Source: a virus (taxonomy: Duplodnaviria; Caudoviricetes). Taken from it: 64,000 nucleotides of DNA. The DNA lies in the IMG/VR virus record IMGVR_UViG_3300025671_008697; one strand, written 5' to 3'. The position numbers were made by a program, and so were the translations under genes. Below, piece by piece: positions 3,558-30,276 of the stretch; positions within the stretch are counted from its first letter, which is position 1; each line of letters begins with the position of its first letter. The notes under the pieces were generated by a model that worked only from the letters and a program-made list of their open reading frames with translations, searched no databases and was not told the DNA's origin.

Positions 3558-6500
3558 ATGGCACTAGTTTCCCCAGGCGTACAAGTCAGTGTAATTGACC
3601 AAAGTTATTACGCACCAACACAATTAGGATCTGTTGCTTACATTTTAGTAGCAACAGCACAAGATAAAATTGCTCCGGGCGGCCTTACAATTGCCCCTGG
3701 AACAGATGTCGACAATGTAGGAACTATCTACAATATTACAAGTCAACGAGACCTGGTAACCACATTCGGTACCCCAGTGTTTCAAACAACTTCCACTGGA
3801 AGTGCAATTAACGGAAGTGAACTAAATGAATACGGTCTGCTTGCGGCCTATAGTTTGTTAGGTGTAAGTAACTCGGTTTATATTCAACGTGCAAATGTTG
3901 ACTTGGGCTCTTTAAATGGCACAACAAGCAGACCATTAGCAGAACCAGCAACTGGCGCTTTGTGGTTAGATACAACTACAACGAATTGGGGTATATATGA
4001 ATGGAATTCAGTGAATCAAGCATTTACTGCGGTTACTCCTATTGTTGTTAACAGTAGTACTGACCTAGTAAGTAATTTAGCACCTAATGTTGGTATAGGA
4101 ACAATTGGTAGTTATGCAGTAAACACTGTAGCGAATACTAGTCCAGTTTACTATAAAACATATGATAATACTTGGCAACTAGTTGGTAATGTAAGTTGGG
4201 AAGCTAAAATTCCAACAATTACCGGTACCACAAGTAGTACTGGTAACGTTATCACTGCTAACAGTAATATTACAATTAACACCACAAACGTTACAGTAGC
4301 AATTAATGCTAATTTAACAACAGTAGCGGCAAATATTAATACTGCTGCTATTGCAGGTGTTACTGCTCGTGTAAGCAGTAGTAACCAATTAGTAATTCAG
4401 GTTACAAGATTAAGTGAAAGCGATGGCGCCACTGCAGACGGTAAAATTGCAATCAGCAACGGCAATAACACACCTTTGTCAGATTTAGGTATTACTGCTG
4501 GAACTTACAACGGACCATCAGTACAAATTAGTCCTTATTATAGCGTACCAGAATTTCAAAGTTCTAATTTGGCAGCTGGCACAGGAAGACCAACAAAATC
4601 TGTATGGCATAAAGCAAGTAGAACTGGCGCAGGCCTAACTGCCGCAGTCAAACAATATAATGCAAGCACAGATACGTGGAACACACTTACAGTAAATGAT
4701 TATGCAAACGTGTTTGCTGCAACATTTGCTTTAGATCCAACTGGAGGTGGTAGTAATATATCTGAAGGTGCAGTGTTTGCACAATATGATCCTTTTGGAA
4801 CTACAGAACCTGGCGCTTTGTTATGGTATAGAGATGCAACCAGTCCAATGACTATTACTGGTAACACCACATCACCAAGTGCAGCCAACGTTGGCGCAAG
4901 TTTTACACTAAAAACTCGTGCAAATGCTAGACTTGGCACAACAACAACTTATACAGTAACAATTAGTACTGCCACAGTTGCTGGATTCGTGGATGCAGTA
5001 AGTGCTGCAACTATTCCAAATGTCAGTGCAGCAATCAGCAGCACAGGCGCAATGACTTTAACTCATGATTTGGGTGGAGACATTGAACTAGTTGACGGCG
5101 CAGGCACACCACTAGCCAACGTAGGTATTGCTGATTCAGGTTCGACAAATGTCTACTACCTACATAGTAATGTTGGAGTAGAAACTTCTACTATTATTGG
5201 TTCTAACTGGAAGCCAATTGATAGAAAAAATTACTCAGTAAGTGCAACACAGATCTTTATTGCTCCTGATAACAACACTTATTGGTACTACAACACACCA
5301 AGTCGTGCTGATATCATGATAAGCAACGGCAGTGCTTGGGTAGGCTACAGAACACTGAGCAGTGATATCAGAGGTTATGATTTAACAACTACAAATAGTA
5401 CCGGTCCTATCATTAGTGCTACAGAGCCAACATTACAAGATGATGGTACCGCACTTGTGTACGGTGATTTGTGGATTGACACCAGTGATTTAGAAAACTA
5501 TCCTGCACTTTACAGATGGCAAAGTGTCAGCGGCGTAGATCAATGGGTCGCAATCGACAACCAAGACAACACCGGCACCGATGGCATTATTTTTGCTGAC
5601 GCACGTTGGGACACAGACGGCACAACCAATCCAGTGACAGGCTCTATTCCTACTATTGCTGCACTTGGATTAAGCAGTTATGTTGACTTAGATGCTCCAG
5701 ATGCAGCACTTTATCCACGTGGTATGTTGTTATGGAACACAAGAGCCAGCGGATATAATGTTAAACAGTACAAGACAAACTACTTTACTGCTGCTGCATA
5801 TCCAGGCGAAAGTTTGCCTAGTGTAGCCAATACTTGGGTAACTGCCAGCGGATTTGACAGCACAGGTGTTGTACCAAACTTTGGGCGCAATGCACAACGT
5901 GGAGTTGTTGTTGCTGCACTTAAGAGTGCAATTGACAGCAGCACTGCACTACGTGAAGACAGCAATGCATTCAACTTGATTGCTTGCCCAGGCTATCCAG
6001 AGTTGATTCCCAACATGGTTGCACTGAATGAAGACAAAGAAAACGTTGCTTTTGTAGTAGGCGACACGCCAATGCGCCTAGCAGCAACTGGTACAGCAAT
6101 TCAAGCATGGGCAGATAACACCAACGGTGCAACTGCTACAGGGGAAGATGGATTAAACACAAGTAGTCCGTACGTTGGACTATACTATCCAAGTGCATTG
6201 ACGAACGATTTGGCTGGTAATCAAGTGGTTGTTCCTCCAAGTCACGTAGCACTACGTACCATTGTTAAGAGCGATAACATCAGCTATCCATGGTTAGCAC
6301 CAGCAGGCACACGCCGTGGATTAATTGATAATGCAAGTGCAATTGGTTATGTTGATGCAGACAGCGGACAGTTTGTGAGTATTGGTGTAAGCCAAGGCAT
6401 ACGTGATGTGTTGTATGAAAACAAGATCAACCCATTTACAAACTTGCCAGGAACAGGGTTAGTGGTATATGGTCAGAAGACTATTGCTACAGAACCAAGT

Positions 6501-6860
6501 GCATTGGATAGAATCAATGTTTCTAGATTGGTAAACTACTTACGTAATCAATTAAACATTGTGGCCCGTCCATTTGTGTTTGAACCAAATGATCCAATCA
6601 CACGTAACGGACTGTTAGCAACAGTTAACAGTTTACTAAATGACTTGGTGGCCAAGCGCGGTATTACAGATTACTTAAGCGTATGTGATACAACAAACAA
6701 TACGCCAGAGCGTATTGCAAGAAACGAACTGTATGTAGACGTTGCCATACAGCCAACTAAGGCAGTAGAATTTATCTACATACCAATTAGATTGAAGAAT
6801 CCAGGAGAAATTCAGGATGGCAATCTAGCAGCGGTAGCGAATCCAGGAACAGGAGCATAA
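3558..6860 (+). CDS. gp18: Tail sheath protein (T4 gp18-like), 1100 aa with large insertion domains
   Basis: N-terminus 'MALVSPGVQVSVIDQS', C-terminal 'YPWLAPAGTRRG', 'GQKT', 'LDRINVSRL', 'FVFEPND', 'ELYVDVAIQPTKAVEFIYIP'; TAAATA at 3523. Confidence 0.95.
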   Translation: MALVSPGVQVSVIDQSYYAPTQLGSVAYILVATAQDKIAPGGLTIAPGTDVDNVGTIYNITSQRDLVTTFGTPVFQTTSTGSAINGSELNEYGLLAAYSLLGVSNSVYIQRANVDLGSLNGTTSRPLAEPATGALWLDTTTTNWGIYEWNSVNQAFTAVTPIVVNSSTDLVSNLAPNVGIGTIGSYAVNTVANTSPVYYKTYDNTWQLVGNVSWEAKIPTITGTTSSTGNVITANSNITINTTNVTVAINANLTTVAANINTAAIAGVTARVSSSNQLVIQVTRLSESDGATADGKIAISNGNNTPLSDLGITAGTYNGPSVQISPYYSVPEFQSSNLAAGTGRPTKSVWHKASRTGAGLTAAVKQYNASTDTWNTLTVNDYANVFAATFALDPTGGGSNISEGAVFAQYDPFGTTEPGALLWYRDATSPMTITGNTTSPSAANVGASFTLKTRANARLGTTTTYTVTISTATVAGFVDAVSAATIPNVSAAISSTGAMTLTHDLGGDIELVDGAGTPLANVGIADSGSTNVYYLHSNVGVETSTIIGSNWKPIDRKNYSVSATQIFIAPDNNTYWYYNTPSRADIMISNGSAWVGYRTLSSDIRGYDLTTTNSTGPIISATEPTLQDDGTALVYGDLWIDTSDLENYPALYRWQSVSGVDQWVAIDNQDNTGTDGIIFADARWDTDGTTNPVTGSIPTIAALGLSSYVDLDAPDAALYPRGMLLWNTRASGYNVKQYKTNYFTAAAYPGESLPSVANTWVTASGFDSTGVVPNFGRNAQRGVVVAALKSAIDSSTALREDSNAFNLIACPGYPELIPNMVALNEDKENVAFVVGDTPMRLAATGTAIQAWADNTNGATATGEDGLNTSSPYVGLYYPSALTNDLAGNQVVVPPSHVALRTIVKSDNISYPWLAPAGTRRGLIDNASAIGYVDADSGQFVSIGVSQGIRDVLYENKINPFTNLPGTGLVVYGQKTIATEPSALDRINVSRLVNYLRNQLNIVARPFVFEPNDPITRNGLLATVNSLLNDLVAKRGITDYLSVCDTTNNTPERIARNELYVDVAIQPTKAVEFIYIPIRLKNPGEIQDGNLAAVANPGTGA

Positions 6861-15794: not shown

Positions 15795-17360
15795 ATGGCA
15801 AAAAGTTTGGAAGTTGTTTTAATCAAAAAACCAAACAGTGTTGAGTCCTATACAGAACAGCAGATACGAGAAATTGCACGATGTGCTGATCCTGCAACAG
15901 GACCACAGTATTTTCTTGACAACTATTTTTACATACAACATCCAACCCGCGGTAGAATGTTGTATAAGCCTTTTGAATATCAAAAAAGATTGGTAGACAC
16001 TTATCACGGTTTTAGATACAGTATTAGTTTGATGCCTAGGCAAACTGGAAAATCAACAACTGCTGCTGGCTACTTGCTTTGGTATGCCATGTTTGTGCCC
16101 GACAGTACTATTTTGGTAGCGGCACATAAGTACACAGGCTCACAGGAAATTATGCAACGTATTCGTTATGGATATGAGAGCGTGCCAGACTTTATACGTG
16201 CAGGTGTTACTAGTTATAACAAAGGCAGCATAGATTTTGACAACGGATCTCGTATTGTAAGTGCAACAACTACAGAAAATACAGGACGTGGTATGAGTAT
16301 TTCCTTACTGTACTGCGACGAGTTTGCGTTTGTGAGACCCAGCATTGCCAAAGAGTTTTGGACATCCATTAGTCCCACACTGGCCACAGGTGGTAAATGT
16401 ATCATTACCAGCACGCCAAACAGTGACGAAGACCAATTTGCACTTATTTGGAGACAGGCAAACAAATGCCTGGACGAATACGGCAATGAAACAGAATTAG
16501 GCATTAATGGATTCAAAGCATTCAGGAGTCGTTGGCAAGAACATCCTGACAGAGATGAAAAGTGGGAGATAGAACAACGAGCACAGTTAGGCGAAGAGAG
16601 ATTCAGACGTGAAATGGAATGCGAGTTTATTATCTTTGATGAAACACTGATTAATCCTATCGTACTAACTGAAATGGCTGGTATAGAACCTTTGGAAAAA
16701 CAAGGACAGGTTCGTTGGTATAAGCAACCAGAACGAGGTAAAACTTATGTAGTGAGTTTAGACCCGAGTTTAGGCACGGGCGGGGACTATGCTGCCATGC
16801 AGGTGCTTGAATTGCCTACGATGAAACAGGTAGCAGAATGGCAACACAATAAAACTCCTATACAGCAACAGGTAAAAATATTGGCAGAAATTACCAAAAC
16901 ACTAGTGGAAACTGCTGGCACAGACAATGACGTTTACTATAGTGTTGAAAACAACACCATCGGCGAAGCAACTCTGGTGGCTATTGCTGAATATGGTGAA
17001 GAAAATATCAGAGGTATATTCCTTAGTGAACCTGTAAAAGCAGGCGCAGCCCGTAGATACAGAAAAGGCTTTAATACCACAAACAGAAATAAATTGGCTG
17101 CTTGCGCTAAACTAAAAAATCTTGTGGAAAGCAAAAAAATCTTTTTGGCTAGTAAATCATTAGTAAGCGAACTTAAAGTGTTTGTGGCATCGGGCAGCGG
17201 ATTTGCAGCCAAAATAGGCGAACATGACGACTTAGTTATGGCACTACTGTTAGCAGTAAGAATGGCTACGTTTTTACGTGAGTTTGACCCCAATTTAGAC
17301 GATAAACTAAAAGATGCCAGTGAAGAACTTCTAATGCCTATGCCCTTTGTAATGAGTTAA
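15795..17360 (+). CDS. gp17: Terminase large subunit (T4 gp17-like)
   Basis: Walker A 'PRQTGKST', Walker B 'LLYCDEFAF', 'ITSTPN', RNase H nuclease 'SLDPSLGTGGDY', 'HDDLVMA'. Confidence 0.95.
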   Translation: MAKSLEVVLIKKPNSVESYTEQQIREIARCADPATGPQYFLDNYFYIQHPTRGRMLYKPFEYQKRLVDTYHGFRYSISLMPRQTGKSTTAAGYLLWYAMFVPDSTILVAAHKYTGSQEIMQRIRYGYESVPDFIRAGVTSYNKGSIDFDNGSRIVSATTTENTGRGMSISLLYCDEFAFVRPSIAKEFWTSISPTLATGGKCIITSTPNSDEDQFALIWRQANKCLDEYGNETELGINGFKAFRSRWQEHPDRDEKWEIEQRAQLGEERFRREMECEFIIFDETLINPIVLTEMAGIEPLEKQGQVRWYKQPERGKTYVVSLDPSLGTGGDYAAMQVLELPTMKQVAEWQHNKTPIQQQVKILAEITKTLVETAGTDNDVYYSVENNTIGEATLVAIAEYGEENIRGIFLSEPVKAGAARRYRKGFNTTNRNKLAACAKLKNLVESKKIFLASKSLVSELKVFVASGSGFAAKIGEHDDLVMALLLAVRMATFLREFDPNLDDKLKDASEELLMPMPFVMS

Positions 17361-24996: not shown

Positions 24997-26016
24997 ATGA
25001 GATACCAAGAATTCCTTACAGAAGCAGTTCAAAAAGACCAAGTAGTTGCTGCATTAAAAAGTGCGGGTTTTGAAGACGTTAGAATTAAAGGCAATCTAAT
25101 TGCAGTTCTAGTTCAAATCCCAGCAAAGCAGAAAAAAGATGCGTTCAGAGTAGCACTATTACAAGACATTGAACGTGTCATGCAACAGGCATTTCCAGAA
25201 GATGGCGCTAAAATTGTGCAAGCTCAACGTTTAAAAAGCAGCATCGGCGGGGTTGTGTTTGATGCCAGTCCTATTGGTATTTTAGTTAAGGATATTGGTG
25301 CTCAGGGTGATCAAAGTGCCGGTGTTGCTAACGAAATTGAGTTGGCCAGTATGATTGAAAGTGTAATTCAAAAGTACGGTAATGCTAATGTTACATTTGT
25401 TGATCCAAGAGGTAAGGAACTTACACTTCAAAACTGCTCAGAAGTACAAATAGCAGGACGCGATACCAAAGGCAGAAAAAAAGCAGACGTGGTACTACGT
25501 AGCGAATCTGGTGATTTGCCCATCAGTATTAAGAAATTAAATGCAGATGCTTGGGAAAGTGCCGATAAACTGTTTGGTGGTAAGGCCAGTGCAGTATTGC
25601 AAAATCTTCAGGATCAGGGTGTTATCAAACTTAAGCAAAGCAAAGATGATGAAGGCAACACAATCTACAGTTTAGATAAAGAAATTGTAGTAGAGCCTAC
25701 TGAAGAAGAAAGCATGCAGGCAATATTTGGCAGTGATATCAATCCTGAAGGTGGTGTGGTAATTCAGACTTTCAAACCTGAGCACTTTAGACAAGATGGC
25801 AATAATGTATTTGTACAGTGCCATGCAATTATCAAAGAAAAAGCAGATATTCCAGAAAGCCACATGATGGTATGGTTAATTAGAAACGACAGAACTAGGA
25901 AAAATCCGCTACCAGGCCTGCGTACACTGGGTGTAACACTGAAACGTGGTATTGGCGCTCGGGGTGACAAACCTGTTATTTTGGTTGACCGATCTGGTAA
26001 TGTATTAAGGAGATAA
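24997..26016 (+). CDS. PD-(D/E)xK nuclease-like late protein with capsid-targeting-like leader (MRYQEFLTE)
   Basis: 'AG..NE', 'KKADVVL', 'ISIKK' arrangement; TAAATA at 24969. Confidence 0.6.
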   Translation: MRYQEFLTEAVQKDQVVAALKSAGFEDVRIKGNLIAVLVQIPAKQKKDAFRVALLQDIERVMQQAFPEDGAKIVQAQRLKSSIGGVVFDASPIGILVKDIGAQGDQSAGVANEIELASMIESVIQKYGNANVTFVDPRGKELTLQNCSEVQIAGRDTKGRKKADVVLRSESGDLPISIKKLNADAWESADKLFGGKASAVLQNLQDQGVIKLKQSKDDEGNTIYSLDKEIVVEPTEEESMQAIFGSDINPEGGVVIQTFKPEHFRQDGNNVFVQCHAIIKEKADIPESHMMVWLIRNDRTRKNPLPGLRTLGVTLKRGIGARGDKPVILVDRSGNVLRR

Positions 26017-26019
26017 AAA

Positions 26020-26295
26020 ATGTGGAAATCTACAGCAACCGTTACTAGTAGCACAGGATGGACATTAGAGCAAATTGCCGTCGCTGTTCAACTATTTGAA
26101 AAAGAATTAAACAATGGAAATATTGCAGAACCACCCCTGCCAGATGAACAAATAGGGTCTTTCGATGAAAGTGGATCTCAGTTTATAAGGTATTACCAAA
26201 CCGAGGCAGATGCAAATTATTGGATAAATTTATTTGAAACAACAGTGACTGACCATCCAACATACACTTGGGTCCTTGAAGAAGTGTCTGAGTAA
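26020..26295 (+). CDS. Hypothetical protein
   Basis: 91 aa ORF with RBS (aggag). Confidence 0.65.
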   Translation: MWKSTATVTSSTGWTLEQIAVAVQLFEKELNNGNIAEPPLPDEQIGSFDESGSQFIRYYQTEADANYWINLFETTVTDHPTYTWVLEEVSE

Positions 26296-26314
26296 TGTTA
26301 TCTGCAGTTAACTG

Positions 26315-26343
26315 TTGACATAAAATCCCCGTTACTATATAAT
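26315..26343 (+). promoter_or_regulatory. Consensus sigma70 promoter for the tRNA cluster
   Basis: TTGACA(26315)-17-TATAAT(26338). Confidence 0.9.
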
Positions 26344-26352
26344 AAGTCTATT

Positions 26353-26429
26353 GCGCTTGTAGCTCAGTTGGTTAGAGCAGTGGACTCATAATCCATTGGT
26401 CGCGGGTTCGAGTCCCTCCGAGCGCACCA
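26353..26429 (+). tRNA. tRNA-Ile2 (CAT anticodon, lysidine type; Met not excluded)
   Basis: Cloverleaf with CT-CAT-AA loop, Ile2-like context, CCA encoded. Confidence 0.85.
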
Positions 26430-26438
26430 GGTTAACAT

Positions 26439-26525
26439 GCCCGGATGGCGAAATCGGTAGACGCCTCAGACTTAAAATCTGATATCCGCATGGGTGTGCC
26501 GGTTCGAGTCCGGCTCCGGGCACCA
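26439..26525 (+). tRNA. tRNA-Leu (TAA)
   Basis: TCAGA-CT-TAA-AA-TCTGA, long variable arm, CCA. Confidence 0.93.
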
Positions 26526-26650
26526 CGAGATTATTATGAGTTTAGGTTCATTATACCTTTTGATTCAGTTCTTTAATAAACAAGAAATTTGTTTTTGGGA
26601 CATTCACCAAGATTAATTTTGGATAAGTACAGTACTTCAAGGAGAACTGT

Positions 26651-26797
26651 ATGGCAGCAAAATCGAAATTAGGTGAAAAACCCCAAGTCAAATTAAAAAT
26701 TGAAAAGCGTACCAGTCAAGGTGGCAAAGTCAAACGCTCGAGCATGAACAAAGGTCGAAAGCGTGGTTTTAAAGCATACCGTGGTCAGGGACGCTAA
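26651..26797 (+). CDS. 48 aa highly basic protein ending KAYRGQGR
   Basis: MAAKSKLGEKPQVKLKIEKRTSQGGKVKRSSMNKGRKRGFKAYRGQGR; RBS aggag. Confidence 0.75.
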   Translation: MAAKSKLGEKPQVKLKIEKRTSQGGKVKRSSMNKGRKRGFKAYRGQGR

Positions 26798-26807
26798 GTA
26801 AACACGT

Positions 26808-26884
26808 TCCCTGGTAGCTCAGTAGGTAGTAGCAACGGACTGTTAATCCGTGTGTCGTTGGTTCGAGCCCAACCCGGGGAGCCA
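26808..26884 (+). tRNA. tRNA-Asn (GTT)
   Basis: ACGGA-CT-GTT-AA-TCCGT, GCCA end. Confidence 0.93.
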
Positions 26885-26891
26885 TTATTTC

Positions 26892-26920
26892 TTGACAACT
26901 GTAGTTTTTGCATATATAAT
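26892..26920 (+). promoter_or_regulatory. Consensus sigma70 promoter
   Basis: TTGACA(26892)-17-TATAAT(26915). Confidence 0.9.
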
Positions 26921-26938
26921 ACAGACATAGAGAGATAG

Positions 26939-27014
26939 GCCGTCTTAGCTCAGCAGGTAGAGCAACGGATTTGTAACCCGTAGGTCGCCAGTTCGATTCC
27001 GGCAGACGGCACCA
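26939..27014 (+). tRNA. tRNA-Thr (TGT)
   Basis: Anticodon loop TT-TGT-AA, CCA. Confidence 0.92.
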
Positions 27015-27112
27015 TATTAAAGCATATCTAGTCGTATGTTGAGCCTATTAGGCCTACAACGGTGTACGATGAAATTGCTGTGTTGTAGTGGCATGGTATG
27101 CTTTAATATGGT
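27011..27112 (+). repeat. Inter-tRNA stalk element A (16 bp perfect terminal inverted repeat)
   Basis: ACCATATTAAAGCATA (27011-26) / TATGCTTTAATATGGT (27097-112). Confidence 0.85.
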
Positions 27113-27116
27113 AAAT

Positions 27117-27201
27117 GCCCCTTTGGCGTAATTGGTAGCCGCGCTGGATTTAGGTTCCAGTACCGAGAGGTGTGAGGGTTCGAGTCCCTTGGGGGGCACC
27201 A
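27117..27201 (+). tRNA. tRNA-Leu (TAG)
   Basis: CTGGA-TT-TAG-GT-TCCAG, long variable arm, CCA. Confidence 0.92.
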
Positions 27202-27209
27202 TATAGTGT

Positions 27210-27283
27210 GCAGGATTCGTATAGTGGTAATACCTCAGCCTTCCAAGCTGATGCGAGGAGTTCGATTCTCCTATCCTGCTCCA
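27210..27283 (+). tRNA. tRNA-Gly (TCC)
   Basis: TCAGC-CT-TCC-AA-GCTGA, TCCA end. Confidence 0.93.
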
Positions 27284-27286
27284 AGT

Positions 27287-27363
27287 CGGGGTGTAGCACA
27301 GCCTGGTAGTGCGCTTGGTTTGGGACCAAGATGTCGGAGGTTCGAATCCTTTCACCCCGACCA
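27287..27363 (+). tRNA. tRNA-Pro (TGG)
   Basis: CTTGG-TT-TGG-GA-CCAAG, CGGGG 5' end, CCA. Confidence 0.93.
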
Positions 27364-27370
27364 TTAAGTT

Positions 27371-27446
27371 GGATCGTTAGCTCAGATGGTAGAGCGTCGG
27401 CTTTACACGCCGAATGTCGGCAGTTCGATCCTGTCACGATCCACCA
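27371..27446 (+). tRNA. tRNA-Val (TAC)
   Basis: TCGGC-TT-TAC-AC-GCCGA, CCA. Confidence 0.93.
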
Positions 27447-27464
27447 TGCTAAATAATCTACCCT

Positions 27465-27538
27465 GGGGGATTAGTGAAGTGGGATCACGCCAGATTTGCA
27501 TTCTGGAATCAGGAGTTCGACTCTCCTATCCTCCACCA
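27465..27538 (+). tRNA. tRNA-Ala (TGC)
   Basis: CCAGA-TT-TGC-AT-TCTGG; G3:U70 identity pair present; CCA. Confidence 0.93.
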
Positions 27539-27540
27539 AT

Positions 27541-27587
27541 TAATACTTTAGTATTATATTGACAGTAATTCAGATTTCACATACAAT
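27541..27587 (+). promoter_or_regulatory. sigma70 promoter (TTGACA-17-TACAAT) with upstream palindrome TAATAC-TTTA-GTATTA
   Basis: Palindrome 27541-56, -35 at 27559, -10 at 27582. Confidence 0.8.
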
Positions 27588-27601
27588 ACACTTAAGTTGA
27601 C

Positions 27602-27656
27602 GCACATTAGAGATAAGACGGTACTGGTTCGAAACGGGACTCCTCGTCTAGTGTGT
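27602..27656 (+). repeat. Short stalk element B (GCACATTAGA / TCTAGTGTGT)
   Basis: 10 bp stem with wobbles sharing the GCACATT/AGTGTG core of elements D and E; interior contains GGTTCGAAAC. Confidence 0.55.
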
Positions 27657-27661
27657 TTCTT

Positions 27662-27736
27662 GCACGGTTCGTCTATCGGTTAGGACACTGGCCTTTCACG
27701 CCGGTAAGAGGGGTTCGATTCCCCTACCGTGTACCA
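27662..27736 (+). tRNA. tRNA-Glu (TTC)
   Basis: CTGGC-CT-TTC-AC-GCCGG, CCA. Confidence 0.92.
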
Positions 27737-27741
27737 AACAT

Positions 27742-27819
27742 AGTACGGTGGCAGAGTGGCCCAATGCACGGGACTGCAAATCCCGAAAACCGTCGGTTCA
27801 AATCCGACCCGTACTTCCA
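27742..27819 (+). tRNA. tRNA-Cys (GCA)
   Basis: CGGGA-CT-GCA-AA-TCCCG, U73 discriminator, CCA. Confidence 0.92.
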
Positions 27820-28035
27820 GAACGTTCCGTGTAGCAACGGATACTCCGACCCGGAGGATGAGAAGTGGTGTAGCAACCACGGGTGGTTCCAGTCCAACCG
27901 AACTGGCGCTGGCAATGCGATAACGGTCCCCGTCGGGGAGCGGGTGGAAGGCGTGCGTGATGGTATGCTGTTTAACCGAAAGGTGACAGGGTGCTTGATG
28001 CGCTATAATTACCGCCGGGGGATGCAGAGCATTTG
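27820..28035 (+). ncRNA. Candidate GC-rich structured ncRNA of unknown class
   Basis: Consecutive hairpins, two with the identical GTAGCA loop, and a GAAA tetraloop; no credible ORF or RBS. Confidence 0.6.
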
Positions 28036-28059
28036 TTAACTTAACAAAGGAGAAGATGT

Positions 28060-28308
28060 ATGCAGTTTATTACATTAAATCAAAGGCACCATCTAGGCCG
28101 TCGAGGTTTTAAATACGCATTTGTGTTTAAGACCTACTCTCAAGAACGGCCTAGCGAATATGCAATTAGTGAAATGGTAAGGAAAGCAGAAGGCATGGGG
28201 TATGATAACACATTCTATGGCAAGAGTCCTGGCAATTGCGAGCGCAGGCCTTACTACGTCGGATTTAACAACGAAACAACTGCAACATTGGTACAATTGC
28301 AGTTATGA
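28060..28308 (+). CDS. Hypothetical protein
   Basis: 82 aa ORF with strong RBS (aaggag). Confidence 0.7.
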   Translation: MQFITLNQRHHLGRRGFKYAFVFKTYSQERPSEYAISEMVRKAEGMGYDNTFYGKSPGNCERRPYYVGFNNETTATLVQLQL

Positions 28309-28323
28309 TAAAAGGAGAAAGCA

Positions 28324-28464
28324 ATGAAGCCAAAACAAATCGCTAGGCAACGTAACCGCTTCGTTGCTTTGGCATTAATGAGAAAAGCGGGCGCACATCG
28401 CAAGTCTAACAAGGCCTTGCGTAGACAACACAAAGCGTCCTTAGATCAGTCGGTAGAGCAGTAG
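28324..28464 (+). CDS. 46 aa basic protein (RKAGAHRKSNKALRR) whose 3' end reads through a tRNA-like 5' half
   Basis: RBS aaggag; translated by hand. Confidence 0.7.
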   Translation: MKPKQIARQRNRFVALALMRKAGAHRKSNKALRRQHKASLDQSVEQ

Positions 28465-28466
28465 AC
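28435..28466 (+). pseudogene. tRNA 5'-half remnant
   Basis: GCGTCCTTAGATCAGTCGGTAGAGCAGTAGAC has acceptor 5' strand and D-arm signature but no T-arm or 3' acceptor strand downstream. Confidence 0.55.
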
Positions 28467-28550
28467 CATATAAAAACACATCGTCCTAGAAGCAGTGAGA
28501 TGAAGACACAATAGGCTCACAAGGGGTGTCACGGTGTGTTTCTATATGGT
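28465..28550 (+). repeat. Stalk element C (20 bp stem, one mismatch, one G:U)
   Basis: ACCATATAAAAACACATCGT / ACGGTGTGTTTCTATATGGT. Confidence 0.8.
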
Positions 28551-28620
28551 TTGACAAAAGGTGGTATGTAGTCGTTGTCAATGCGGCGAGGACCGGGATT
28601 CCTTTCTCAGCAACACTGAG

Positions 28621-28722
28621 ACCATATTGAAGCACATTGCCCGCCGTGGTAGGGGAATCGCAAACAGATTGATCACTGTTGCCGATGAGTGGTTCGAATC
28701 CAACAGTGTGCTTCAATATGGT
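28621..28722 (+). repeat. Stalk element D (19 bp stem) enclosing a tRNA-like cloverleaf
   Basis: ACCATATTGAAGCACATTG / CAGTGTGCTTCAATATGGT; interior has TGGTA D-loop-like and GGTTCGAATCC T-loop-like motifs. Confidence 0.85.
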
Positions 28723-28725
28723 AAT

Positions 28726-28812
28726 GGAGATGTAGGAAAATTGGTAACCCCAGCGGACTGTAAATCCGCCGCCCGAAAGGCACTGTGTGTTCGACTCACA
28801 CCGTCTCCACCA
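28726..28812 (+). tRNA. tRNA-Tyr (GTA)
   Basis: GCGGA-CT-GTA-AA-TCCGC, long variable arm, CCA. Confidence 0.92.
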
Positions 28813-28886
28813 TATTGAAGCACATTCTAGGCACGATCTTTACTGCAGGTGCCGACGAAAAAGAGACGAGTGTGCTTCAATATGGT
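28809..28886 (+). repeat. Stalk element E (19 bp stem) joining tRNA-Tyr ACCA to the tRNA-Asp 5' GGT
   Basis: ACCATATTGAAGCACATTC / GAGTGTGCTTCAATATGGT. Confidence 0.87.
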
Positions 28887-28958
28887 CTGTTAGTTAAACG
28901 GTTATAATAATGGCCTGTCACGCCGTAGTCAGGGGTTCGACTCCCCTACAGACCGCCA
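28884..28958 (+). tRNA. tRNA-Asp (GTC)
   Basis: Anticodon loop CT-GTC-AC, GCCA end. Confidence 0.9.
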
Positions 28959-28964
28959 AATAAA

Positions 28965-28993
28965 TTTACATACTGATTATAAATCAGTATAAT
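28965..28993 (+). promoter_or_regulatory. sigma70 promoter (TTTACA-17-TATAAT) with palindromic spacer
   Basis: TACTGAT-TATAA-ATCAGTA spans the spacer and start of the -10. Confidence 0.7.
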
Positions 28994-29002
28994 TACTTTA
29001 AA

Positions 29003-29089
29003 GGAAGGTTGGCAGAGTGGTAATGCACCGGATTGCTAATCCGCCGCTCAGAAATGGGCGCACAGGTTCGAGTCCTGTACCTTCCGCCA
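29003..29089 (+). tRNA. tRNA-Ser (GCT)
   Basis: CGGA-TT-GCT-AA-TCCG, long variable arm, GCCA. Confidence 0.92.
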
Positions 29090-29093
29090 TATT

Positions 29094-29169
29094 GCGGGAT
29101 TAGCTCAGTTGGTAGAGCGAATGCTTGCCAAGCATTAGGTCGTCGGTTCGAACCCGATATCCCGCTCCA
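29094..29169 (+). tRNA. tRNA-Gly (GCC)
   Basis: AATGC-TT-GCC-AA-GCATT, GCGGGA 5' end, TCCA. Confidence 0.93.
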
Positions 29170-29184
29170 CTTTAGTTTATAACT

Positions 29185-30276
29185 TTGATTAATATATATT
29201 CTGCTGGTCATGTTTATGGTTTAGAGTTTTTGCCTGAATCTTATGAAATCTTTAATAATTTAGAAAAAATAAAACTAGCACCAGGCGCACGTCTTGCATT
29301 TATAAGCAACGCAGATATCTGGTATTCTTTACCAAGAGAATTTTTTGATGTAGTTGTTTTTTGGACAACTGAATCGTTATCTTGGGAAAGAACTCAAAAC
29401 AAACCCATTGTCCCTTTGTCAGATAAAGATATTATTTTCAGCAGTAGCAAAGGGCCAAACAATGATATGGATCTGCTTTATTGGTATGATTATGTATCTG
29501 GGATTTATAAATCAAAGTTTAAAAAATTTTTGCCAAGCCTTGAAATATCAAATCATAAGTTGTTTTGTAGTTTAGGTAAAGCCAGATTGCCAAGGACTTA
29601 TGCTTATTGTAAATTCCACGAATTAAATCTAATAAAATCTAATCATATAAGTTTTGTTTCACGTAAAATTTATAAAAATATAGAATCCCCTGACAATATG
29701 GATTTTGAAGGTCAATCTAAAATGGCAGATTTTGTTGCAAATTCTTCTATTGACCTACAAGAACCTATAAAAATTAATTTCAAAGATGATTGGAATATCA
29801 GTAAGAGGCAAAATGATTGGTATACAAAACTTAGAAATACAAACGTAAATGTTTCTGCAATTTTCCCAACTAAAGTGATAAATCAGTCTAGTTTGCTTTT
29901 TGTATTTGAAACGGAAATGCATAATTTAGAACACTTTTCAACAGAAAAAACAGTAAAGGCACTTATTAGTGGAAGACCATCTATTATAATTGCATCTCAA
30001 GGTTATCTTGATTATGTTAAAAAACTAGGGTTTAAAACATGGGACGGGATTATCGATGAAAAATATCAATATTATTCATGCCATAAAACAAGAATAGACA
30101 AAGCAATAAACGAAGCACAACGTTTTTTTTCAACCGATGTACTCGGTAGCAAATGCCTACAAAAACAAATTAAAGACATTGCAGTTTACAATAGGAATCA
30201 TTTATTTCAAACCGACTGGAAATATAACCAAAAAATTGCTTGGAACAAAATTTTAAAAAAACTGAAAAATAAATAA
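29185..30276 (+). CDS. AT-rich accessory protein with GT10-like C-terminus
   Basis: 'VFETE.....FSTEKT.KA...GRP.II....GYL..VKKLGFKTW..IIDE.Y'. Confidence 0.55.
   Translation: MINIYSAGHVYGLEFLPESYEIFNNLEKIKLAPGARLAFISNADIWYSLPREFFDVVVFWTTESLSWERTQNKPIVPLSDKDIIFSSSKGPNNDMDLLYWYDYVSGIYKSKFKKFLPSLEISNHKLFCSLGKARLPRTYAYCKFHELNLIKSNHISFVSRKIYKNIESPDNMDFEGQSKMADFVANSSIDLQEPIKINFKDDWNISKRQNDWYTKLRNTNVNVSAIFPTKVINQSSLLFVFETEMHNLEHFSTEKTVKALISGRPSIIIASQGYLDYVKKLGFKTWDGIIDEKYQYYSCHKTRIDKAINEAQRFFSTDVLGSKCLQKQIKDIAVYNRNHLFQTDWKYNQKIAWNKILKKLKNK

What the first reader, a model, noticed from the sequence alone, without database searches (positions are those of the whole stretch)
27011..28886. Family of conserved-stalk / variable-cargo RNA elements between tRNA genes that pair the tRNA ACCA end
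Seen: at least four elements (A 27011-27112, C 28465-28550, D 28621-28722, E 28809-28886), plus a short relative (B 27602-27656), share related 16-20 bp terminal inverted repeats. The consensus is ACCATATT(G/A)AAGCA(C/T)A ... T(G/A)TGCTT(C/T)AATATGGT. The arms differ between copies by compensatory changes: A has TAAAGCATA/TATGCTTTA, D and E have TGAAGCACA/TGTGCTTCA. This points to selection on pairing rather than on sequence. The 40-66 nt interiors are unrelated to each other but each is itself structured. In A and E the left arm starts with the upstream tRNA's own ACCA, and in E the right arm ends in the first GGT of tRNA-Asp. Established: ~20 bp stems are RNase III-type processing stalks (rRNA operons, T7 early RNA). 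Inference: a repeat-and-cargo system that either gates tRNA 3' maturation or releases a set of small RNAs from the tRNA transcript, or a MITE-like unit that uses ACCA as its target. I recognise no named family for it.
Basis: partly seen in the sequence, partly recalled or inferred. Interest (0 to 1): 0.85.

Follow-up and report, generated by a model that had tools for sequence, protein, structure and literature searches.

The report
Clamp-stem RNA cassettes between phage tRNAs
Between the tRNA genes of this uncultured freshwater phage sit four hairpins that share one nearly invariant 18-base-pair stem, which begins on the CCA end of the preceding tRNA and encloses a different insert each time. 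They belong to a large, apparently undescribed, phage-only RNA family whose function is still unproven.

Summary
Elements A, C, D and E are real hairpins with an 18-bp stalk (ACCAUAUUGAAGCACAYU / AGUGUGYUUCAAUAUGGU). B is only a weak, partial relative.

In 120 bacterial-genome places with the same 16-mer, only one had paired arms.

Of the 150 copies, 70 start exactly on a tRNA's discriminator+CCA, and 19 end in the first three bases of the next tRNA. Ten of the 18 stalk pairs covary. G·U wobbles follow the tRNA strand (p = 6e-9), and cargo is never inverted, so the hairpin most probably acts as RNA.

Cargo is hypervariable: 116 sequence clusters among 150 copies. Yet whole elements are at least 90% identical between phages whose flanks are unrelated, so they are discrete units exchanged horizontally.

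Rfam has no match. Cultured relatives (PA5oct, DLP6, T4) lack the elements. Five large records, one of them complete, encode no RNase III, dsRBD, Ro60 or CCA-adding enzyme.

My best reading (0.4) is a processing and insulation stalk, cut by a duplex-specific nuclease such as host RNase III, that frees the flanking tRNAs and a small cargo RNA. The rivals are a protein-binding scaffold RNA and a DNA-level mobile cassette.

This scan has already found the same family on other DNA.

The parts
27011..27112 (+). Element A. An 18-bp stalk plus 66-nt cargo. Its first 4 nt are the ACCA of tRNA-Thr, and tRNA-Leu(tag) starts 4 nt after it.
   Evidence: 58.1 bits, E 3.9e-15. The cargo is conserved at 93-95% in L083, L085 and L111.
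28465..28550 (+). Element C. A stalk variant (ACCAUAUAAAAACACA / UGUGUUUCUAUAUGGU) with an A·C mismatch at position 9 and a 50-nt cargo. It follows a truncated tRNA 5' half, not a full tRNA.
   Evidence: 52.4 bits. The same stalk variant lies mostly behind tRNA-Lys in other phages.
28621..28722 (+). Element D. A consensus stalk plus 66-nt cargo that carries a weak T-arm-like GGUUCGAAUCC hairpin. tRNA-Tyr starts 3 nt after it.
   Evidence: 64.3 bits, E 5.3e-17.
28809..28886 (+). Element E. A consensus stalk plus 42-nt cargo. It starts on the ACCA of tRNA-Tyr, and its last 3 nt (GGU) are the first bases of tRNA-Asp.
   Evidence: The relative L083 lacks it; there Tyr and Asp are 5 nt apart.
27599..27659 (+). 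B, a doubtful relative. It has only the top 7 bp of the stalk (GCACAUU / AGUGUGU) around a 41-nt insert. It lies just downstream of a promoter-like site and upstream of tRNA-Glu.
   Evidence: z -0.5; E 1.8, model positions 9-85. It is identical in L111. One RNA-library contig covers 27591-27740.
26939..27014 (+). tRNA-Thr(tgt). Its discriminator and CCA form stalk pairs 1-4 of A.
28726..28812 (+). tRNA-Tyr(gta), flanked by D upstream and E downstream. Its acceptor stem differs from that of the relative L083.
28884..28958 (+). tRNA-Asp(gtc). Its first three bases pair in the stalk of E.
28434..28464 (+). A tRNA 5'-half remnant (acceptor strand, D arm, start of the anticodon stem). It overlaps the end of a 46-aa ORF and stops where C begins.
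   Evidence: (repeat family D8, 86% to tRNA D arms).
28551..28620 (+). A conserved non-tRNA module between C and D. It ends in a 5-bp minihelix (loop CAACA) followed by the ACCA that opens D.
   Evidence: The same module, with compensatory stem changes, precedes elements in L039, L118, L034 and L001.

Best explanation
The elements are RNA modules inside the polycistronic transcript of the phage tRNA array.

Each spacer folds into an 18-bp duplex. Its 5' strand starts with the discriminator and CCA of the upstream tRNA or tRNA-like RNA. Its 3' strand ends at, or a few bases before, the 5' end of the next RNA. The stalk abuts the upstream acceptor stem with no unpaired base between them.

I propose that the duplex works as a processing and insulation signal:
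1. It keeps neighbouring RNAs from misfolding into each other.
2. It holds the CCA end paired.
3. A duplex-specific endonuclease cuts it in its A/U-rich middle. Host RNase III is the likeliest candidate, because the phages carry none.
4. Exonucleases then trim the upstream tRNA back to CCA.
5. RNase P removes the short leader of the downstream tRNA.
6. The cargo, capped by the top of the stalk, is released as a small RNA.

Because every element carries the same arms, cargo and whole elements can be exchanged between arrays and between phages.

Shown: the anatomy, the RNA-type conservation, the tie to tRNA ends and the horizontal exchange.
Inferred: the cut, the enzyme and the fate of the cargo.
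For: Anatomy:
- 70 of 150 elements start exactly at a tRNA discriminator+CCA. 19 end in the first 3 nt of the next tRNA. 26 touch tRNAs on both sides.
- Many of the others follow tRNA-like 3' ends or minihelices that also end in NCCA.
- In precursor folds the stalk follows the acceptor stem directly.

RNA-level selection:
- 97.4% of stalk cells are paired, and 10 of 18 pairs change on both sides; 0 of 500 shuffles reach this.
- Pairing falls to random beyond pair 19.
- G·U against A·C follows the tRNA strand (odds ratio 14, p = 6e-9).
- Model scores are higher on the tRNA strand.
- Cargo is never inverted: 52 same-orientation pairs and none inverted.
- Changed cargo pairs stay paired in 24 of 42 cases, against 0.28 expected (p = 5e-5).

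Specificity:
- Arms occur only as pairs, and only in the tRNA region, of five large phage records.
- Only 1 of 120 bacterial-genome control places has paired arms.

Enzyme:
- There is no RNase III, dsRBD or CCA-adding gene in five records, including a complete 400-kb genome. A host enzyme is therefore the economical candidate.
- 97% of the array tRNAs encode CCA.

From my own knowledge, not tested here: ~20-bp stems flanking rRNAs and the T7 early RNAs are RNase III sites, and RNase III takes part in processing the T4 tRNA cluster.
Against: - There is no expression or end-mapping evidence. The only RNA data were assembled contigs, mostly from other organisms' tRNAs.
- A structural signal for RNase III does not by itself explain why the sequence is nearly invariant across very different phages. 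Nor does it explain the conserved wobbles at pairs 12 and 17, or the recurrent A·C at pair 9. These point to a sequence-specific reader.
- Only about 7% of the array tRNAs are followed by an element. A close relative does without C, D and E. The stalk is therefore not needed for tRNA maturation as such.
- An 18-19-bp helix is at the short end for RNase III, unless it stacks on the acceptor stem.
Confidence: 0.4

Rival explanations
1. Scaffold or decoy small RNAs. The stalk is the binding site of a sequence-specific, probably dimeric, RNA-binding protein from the phage or the host. The cargo is the working part: a tRNA mimic, a decoy for a host nuclease or defence protein, or a tether. This would resemble Y RNAs, whose conserved stem binds Ro60 while a variable module does the work.
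For: - The stalk is conserved in sequence, not only in pairing.
- It has fixed wobbles: G·U at pair 12 (42%) and U·G at pair 17 (79%). Each G lies at the 5' end of its strand, which gives a two-fold arrangement. An A·C recurs at pair 9.
- Cargo families are 90-99% conserved between phages with unrelated flanks and show compensatory changes.
- 8 of 144 cargos carry a T-arm, against 0.13 expected. T4 rnaC has the same kind of T-arm.
- High cargo turnover and horizontal exchange are typical of arms-race functions.
Against: - There is no Ro60/TROVE or dsRBD gene in five records.
- There is no YrlA match at E < 1.
- No neighbouring protein family is shared by more than 21 of 82 loci.
- Cargo folds only slightly better than shuffled sequence (mean z -0.46).
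- Cargo at the same array position differs completely between phages.
- A cargo-less 45-nt copy exists (L095 2148-2192).
Confidence: 0.25
2. A DNA-level mobile or recombination cassette. The arms are terminal inverted repeats, or portable homology in the manner of the PeSL motifs of T4-type phages. Through them elements are inserted, lost and swapped in tRNA arrays. The RNA hairpin is then a by-product.
For: - In 43 of 49 same-cargo pairs the elements are at least 90% identical. In 22 of these one flank is at background identity (0.59), and in 10 both flanks are.
- The blocks of identity end at the stalk ends.
- The same cargo lies behind different tRNAs.
- There is presence/absence polymorphism between the window and L083.
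- HNH endonuclease genes recur in these arrays.
- 6 of 150 elements are followed at once by a sigma-70-like promoter, against 0.3 expected, which is PeSL-like.
Against: - The strand-specific G·U bias, the fixed cargo orientation and the compensatory changes in cargo are not expected for a purely DNA element.
- Copies within a genome do not share interiors.
- No target duplication could be inferred from the one filled/empty pair. No transposase family turned up among the ten commonest neighbouring protein clusters.
- The start coincides exactly with the tRNA discriminator in 70 copies.

This rival does not exclude the best explanation. Exchange at the DNA level and function at the RNA level can both hold.
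Confidence: 0.2
3. Spacer hairpins with no function of their own, homogenised by gene conversion. Their loops are filled with decaying tRNA fragments.
For: - Cargo is only weakly structured.
- There are T-arm fragments and a half-tRNA remnant.
- Part of D's cargo is a 13-nt antisense piece of the tRNA-Glu 3' end.
- The elements are dispensable in relatives.
Against: - The 18-bp sequence is nearly invariant across PA5oct-like, T4-like and 400-kb phages.
- Covariation keeps the pairing.
- The wobble positions are conserved.
- Elements are better conserved than the neighbouring tRNAs between divergent phages.
Confidence: 0.1

Closest known systems
RNase III processing stalks (stems flanking 16S/23S rRNA; phage T7 early-RNA sites R0.3-R1.3)
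   Same: A duplex of about 18-20 bp, formed by sequences that flank or separate stable RNAs in a polycistronic transcript. Several related copies occur per genome.
   Different: Here the stalk encloses the spacer, not the stable RNA. It starts exactly on a tRNA CCA end. Its sequence is nearly invariant across unrelated phages. It has no internal loop. Cleavage is untested.
Phage T4 small stable RNAs rnaC and rnaD (species 1 and 2), and the stable RNAs of the T5 tRNA region
   Same: Non-tRNA small RNAs of unknown function encoded inside a phage tRNA cluster on the tRNA strand. rnaC has a terminal stem and a T-arm next to its 3' strand, like some cargos.
   Different: T4 has no shared clamp stem, no CCA-anchored hairpin and no exchangeable inserts. 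There is no sequence similarity.
Bacterial and phage Y RNAs (YrlA/YrlB, Rfam RF02553; Chen et al. 2014, PMC4201824)
   Same: A conserved closing stem with a variable module that can mimic tRNA.
   Different: No match to the YrlA model. No Ro60/TROVE gene in five records. Most cargos are not tRNA-like. The elements lie in tRNA arrays, not next to rsr.
PeSL promoter/stem-loop cassettes of T4-type phages (PMC2839356, PMC4122927)
   Same: Short conserved motifs repeated in variable regions of large myoviruses, marking the borders of exchanged modules.
   Different: PeSLs are composite terminator/promoter motifs that flank ORFs. Only 6 of 150 elements here are followed by a promoter. The conserved part here is an inverted repeat under RNA-type selection.
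MITEs and integron attC sites
   Same: Inverted-repeat ends with a variable centre, and discrete units found in unrelated contexts.
   Different: No target duplication could be inferred, and no transposase or integrase was found among the neighbours scanned. Interiors are not shared within a genome. The mismatch pattern is strand-specific. The cargo has RNA-type compensatory changes.

Membership tests
Any Rfam 15 family | Match to a curated covariance model at its gathering score. | tested here: not met
   In window 25500-30000 only tRNA passes. In L043 5300-6100 and L015 8200-9300 there are only tRNA hits and miRNA-precursor look-alikes at 18-25 bits, against cut-offs of 52-90.
RNase III processing stalk | Uninterrupted dsRNA of about two helical turns, formed by sequences flanking stable RNAs. 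| tested here: inconclusive
   The helix is 18-19 bp, with 97.4% of cells paired. It abuts the acceptor stem in precursor folds. It reaches two turns only if it stacks on that stem.
RNase III processing stalk | Staggered double-strand cleavage by RNase III. | not testable with these tools
   Only assembled RNA contigs were available, and they show no ends.
Y RNA (YrlA type) | Ro60-binding stem, with a Ro60/TROVE gene in the same genome. | tested here: not met
   PF05731 is absent from five records, one of them complete. There is no RF02553 hit on any element.
Y RNA (YrlA type) | tRNA-like module (T arm, D arm). | tested here: not met
   A T-arm-like hairpin occurs in only 8 of 144 cargos.
MITE | Terminal inverted repeats, plus near-identical interiors in multiple copies per genome. 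| tested here: not met
   Inverted arms are present. But the four window cargos are unrelated, and 150 copies fall into 116 cargo clusters.
MITE | Target-site duplication at filled against empty sites. | tested here: inconclusive
   Only one pair could be compared. The empty site is CCA|TATTT|GGT and the filled site is CCA|TATT...AATAT|GGT, between phages about 88% identical.
PeSL | Composite stem-loop plus early promoter, flanking ORFs. | tested here: not met
   A promoter follows 6 of 150 elements. The elements flank tRNAs and small RNAs.
Self-cleaving ribozymes next to phage tRNAs (HDV-like, hammerhead) | Conserved catalytic core. | tested here: not met
   No Rfam ribozyme hit. The only conserved part is a regular helix.

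The most novel reading that the evidence does not exclude
The stalk is the common 'socket' of a cassette system for small RNAs, shared among phages. The cargo is processed through the same clamp stem and swapped between unrelated phages through the identical arms. This would be an RNA counterpart of integron gene cassettes. The cargos would serve fast-evolving tasks, such as decoys for host tRNA-targeting defences.
Probability: 0.25. Interest if true: 0.9.

Novelty: new variant of a known kind. Interest (0 to 1): 0.8.

Why it matters
Phage tRNA arrays are usually read as codon-supply or anti-defence tRNA sets. This family shows that they also carry a standardised, horizontally exchanged module that clamps tRNA CCA ends and carries many different small RNAs.

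If the stalk is a processing signal, it defines how these long precursors are matured. It would also be a ready-made scaffold for expressing small RNAs.

If the cargos are functional, they are a large untapped pool of phage small RNAs.

The conserved 18-bp duplex, with its fixed wobbles, also predicts a reader that has not been identified: a nuclease or a binding protein.

Tried and rejected
- RNA evidence. Three metatranscriptome runs were laid on 26300-29300. They hold assembled contigs only, mostly other organisms' tRNAs. A few clean contigs cover 26526-26803 and 27591-27740. There is no cover of C, D or E, and no ends. This says nothing either way.
- Antisense targets. Cargo matches within the window are 11-13 nt, about the chance level.
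- GenBank phages. BLAST of the region and of E found only tRNAs or chance matches. The one candidate, in LR756502, is not an element.
- Cultured phages. The model found nothing in PA5oct (nearest cultured relative, TerL 57%), in Stenotrophomonas phage DLP6 or in the T4 tRNA region.
- Partner protein. No RNase III, dsRBD, TROVE or CCA-adding genes were found. A PF04308 RNase H-like gene lies inside the arrays of 21 of 82 loci. It is absent from the window and from the complete 400-kb record, and it is present in DLP6, which has no elements. It is therefore not the specific partner.
- Small ORFs in the array have no Pfam match.
- Top-of-stalk-only elements like B are not enriched on the sense strand.
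- Split or permuted tRNA around C and D. I looked by eye for matching 3' halves and found none. The 5' half at 28434-28464 is a remnant.
- Stalks enclosing tRNAs (the right arm of one element pairing with the left arm of the next). This is possible only for tRNA-Tyr here and is rare elsewhere.
Full report
**What is in the window**

The window comes from an uncultured large myovirus. It has a tail sheath gene at 3558-6860 and a large terminase gene at 15795-17360. The terminase is 57% identical to that of Pseudomonas jumbo phage PA5oct. Its DNA is found in freshwater metagenomes. No whole genome is held.

Fifteen tRNA genes lie on the + strand between 26353 and 29169.
- A, 27011-27112
- C, 28465-28550
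- D, 28621-28722
- E, 28809-28886

Their arms are 16-20 nt inverted repeats. The arm 16-mer occurs 9 times, against about 1 expected. The hairpins fold far better than shuffled sequence, with z from -3.9 to -6.9.

A and E begin with the ACCA of tRNA-Thr and tRNA-Tyr. E ends in the GGT that opens tRNA-Asp. B (27599-27659) shares only the top 7 bp of the stem, and it is not significant.

**It is a large phage family**

Allowing 3 mismatches per arm, 150 paired elements (144 distinct) were found in 82 sources.

The same scan of bacterial and archaeal genomes served as a control. It also hit its limit, but only 1 of 120 places had a paired arm. That place is a 1.5-kb contig binned with a Planktophila MAG.

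In five large phage records (100-400 kb) the arms occur only as pairs and only in the tRNA region, 1-4 elements each.

A covariance model built from 70 elements finds exactly A, C, D and E in the window. It also finds more divergent copies in the loci.

Nothing in Rfam 15 matches. GenBank phages gave no hit. PA5oct, Stenotrophomonas phage DLP6 and T4 have no such elements and no CCA-anchored hairpins at all.

Literature searches found no description of the family.

Other readers and agents of this scan have met the same family on at least four other genomes and also found it undescribed. I did not rely on their notes. Every point above was tested here.

**Anatomy of the stalk**

The helix is 18 bp: ACCAUAUUGAAGCACAYU pairs with AGUGUGYUUCAAUAUGGU. 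A 19th pair often forms, and pairing is random from pair 20 on.

On the 70-sequence alignment, 97.4% of cells are paired. Ten of the 18 pairs show changes on both sides (56 cells). No shuffle out of 500 and no slid register comes close.

The sequence is also conserved in itself. Part of this is forced by the search pattern on one arm. Pairs 17 and 18 and the opposite arm were not forced.

Three positions stand out:
- Pair 12 is G·U in 42% of elements (otherwise G-C or A-U).
- Pair 17 is U·G in 79%.
- Pair 9 is A·C in 12% and never G·U. The A·C goes with the stalk variant seen in element C.

The two wobbles at pairs 12 and 17 each have the G at the 5' end of its strand, four pairs apart. That is a two-fold arrangement.

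**Tie to tRNA ends**

All tRNAs of a locus lie on one strand. Relative to that strand:
- 70 of 150 elements start exactly at the discriminator base, so stalk pairs 1-4 are N73-C-C-A.
- 19 end in the first three bases of the next tRNA.
- 26 touch tRNAs on both sides.

Many elements with no called tRNA upstream still follow something tRNA-like: a T arm plus acceptor strand, or another recurrent small module that ends in NCCA. One example is the conserved 70-nt module between C and D.

97% of the 1091 array tRNAs encode CCA. About 7% of them are followed by an element.

In folds of the Thr-A-Leu and Tyr-E-Asp precursors, the stalk follows the upstream acceptor stem with no unpaired base between them.

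**RNA or DNA?**

Several results point to selection on the transcript of the tRNA strand:
- Elements with only G·U or only A·C mismatches split 79 to 21 in favour of G·U when read on the tRNA strand (Fisher p = 6e-9).
- Model scores are 8-14 bits higher on that strand.
- Related cargos are always in the same orientation: 52 pairs, none inverted, although the arms are inverted repeats.
- Where related cargos differ at a predicted pair, pairing is kept in 24 of 42 cases, against 0.28 expected (p = 5e-5). Paired sites change less than unpaired ones.

Direct expression evidence is lacking.

**The cargo**

Cargo length runs from 9 to 123 nt. The 150 cargos fall into 116 sequence clusters, of which 92 are singletons. 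The four window cargos are unrelated to one another.

As a population, cargos fold only slightly better than shuffled sequence (mean z -0.46). For the window they are A -1.3, C +1.05, D +0.5, E -0.5.

Eight of 144 cargos carry a T-arm-like hairpin, against 0.13 expected. T4's stable RNA rnaC has the same feature.

No antisense targets beyond chance were found.

**Horizontal exchange**

L083 and L085 are close relatives of the window phage. They have the same tRNA order and about 88% nucleotide identity. They keep A but lack C, D, E and the two small ORFs. Their Tyr-Asp junction reads CCA|TATTT|GGT.

Across loci, elements that share a cargo are at least 90% identical in 43 of 49 pairs. Yet in 22 of these one 150-nt flank is at the background identity of unrelated DNA (0.59), and in 10 both flanks are. 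The blocks of identity end at the stalk ends, and the elements are better conserved than the neighbouring tRNAs. The same cargo is found behind different tRNAs.

Elements are therefore discrete units that move or are swapped between phages. Those phages range from PA5oct-like to T4-like, judged by neighbours such as T4 RNase H, dCMP deaminase and Hsp20, and include a 400-kb phage.

**What reads the stalk?**

Five large records, one rated complete, encode no RNase III (PF14622, PF00636), no dsRBD, no Ro60/TROVE and no CCA-adding enzyme.

No neighbouring protein family is shared by more than 21 of 82 loci. The commonest is a PF04308 RNase H-like gene that sits inside the arrays. It is absent from the window and from the complete record, and it is present in DLP6, which has no elements.

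**Verdict**

The most economical mechanism is a processing and insulation stalk, cut by a duplex-specific nuclease, that frees the flanking tRNAs and a cargo RNA (confidence 0.4).

That reading does not account for the near-invariant sequence or the fixed wobbles. These keep a sequence-specific protein-binding scaffold in play (0.25). The clear horizontal exchange keeps a DNA-level cassette mechanism in play as well (0.2), and that mechanism may coexist with an RNA function.

No defining feature of any named family is met. The nearest analogues are RNase III stalks, the T4/T5 stable RNAs of tRNA clusters, Y RNAs and PeSL cassettes.

Noticed in passing
window 27820-28010: A 190-nt protein-free stretch after tRNA-Cys. 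It holds two hairpins with the same 8-nt loop UGUAGCAA (stems UCCG/CGGA and GUGG/CCAC). The stretch 27538-27951 is 97% identical to L083, where the rest of the region is about 88%. There is no Rfam hit. It may be another small RNA.
   Followed up: partly
window 28551-28620: The 70-nt spacer between C and D is a conserved module (GGUGGUAUGUAG ... GAGGACYGGGAUUCC ... minihelix with loop CAACA, then ACCA). It also lies between stalk elements in L039, L118, L034 and L001, with compensatory changes in the minihelix. It occupies a tRNA-like slot but is not a tRNA.
   Followed up: partly
window 28324-28464 and 28434-28464: A 46-aa very basic ORF with a strong Shine-Dalgarno site ends inside a tRNA 5'-half remnant that stops where element C begins. 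Two more small ORFs sit inside the array: 26651-26797 (48 aa, basic) and 28060-28308 (82 aa). None has a Pfam match.
   Followed up: partly
L080 8256-8720 and 20 other loci; Stenotrophomonas phage DLP6 (L242 6992-7474): A PF04308 RNase H-like (YkuK-type) gene lies inside phage tRNA arrays, on the tRNA strand, in 21 of 82 loci and in cultured phage DLP6. It is not tied to the stalk elements. It may have a role in tRNA-array biology.
   Followed up: partly
L015, L018, L007, L040; L010, L118, L079; L015, L118, L043 (upstream of elements): At least three further recurrent 60-75-nt sequence modules, none of them a tRNA, directly precede stalk elements in several loci. These arrays hold more kinds of small conserved RNA than tRNAs and stalk elements.
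   Followed up: no
window 28648-28660 against 27716-27728: Part of D's cargo is a perfect 13-nt antisense match to the T-arm/acceptor 3' end of tRNA-Glu in the same array, and 92% to tRNA-Asp. It is either a scrambled tRNA fragment or a pairing site. The chance level is about 0.05.
   Followed up: partly
window 27040-27058 against 28501-28519: The cargos of A and C share a 9-nt perfectly complementary stretch (GAGCCUAUU / AAUAGGCUC) in predicted loop regions. This could be a kissing contact, or chance (roughly 0.01 per cargo pair).
   Followed up: no
L083 / L085, between element A and tRNA-Leu(tag): The relatives carry an insertion of about 990 nt where the window has only 4 nt. L111 has further insertions of about 1.2 kb, including a duplicated tRNA-Pro. 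The array is a hot spot for indels.
   Followed up: no
window 27198-27212 and 29086-29096: Two short tRNA-tRNA spacers also start CCA-UAU: Leu(tag)-UAUAGUGU-Gly and Ser-UAUU-Gly. The empty Tyr-Asp site of L083 reads UAUUU. Across all loci, UAUU is the commonest 4-mer after CCA only because of the elements.
   Followed up: partly
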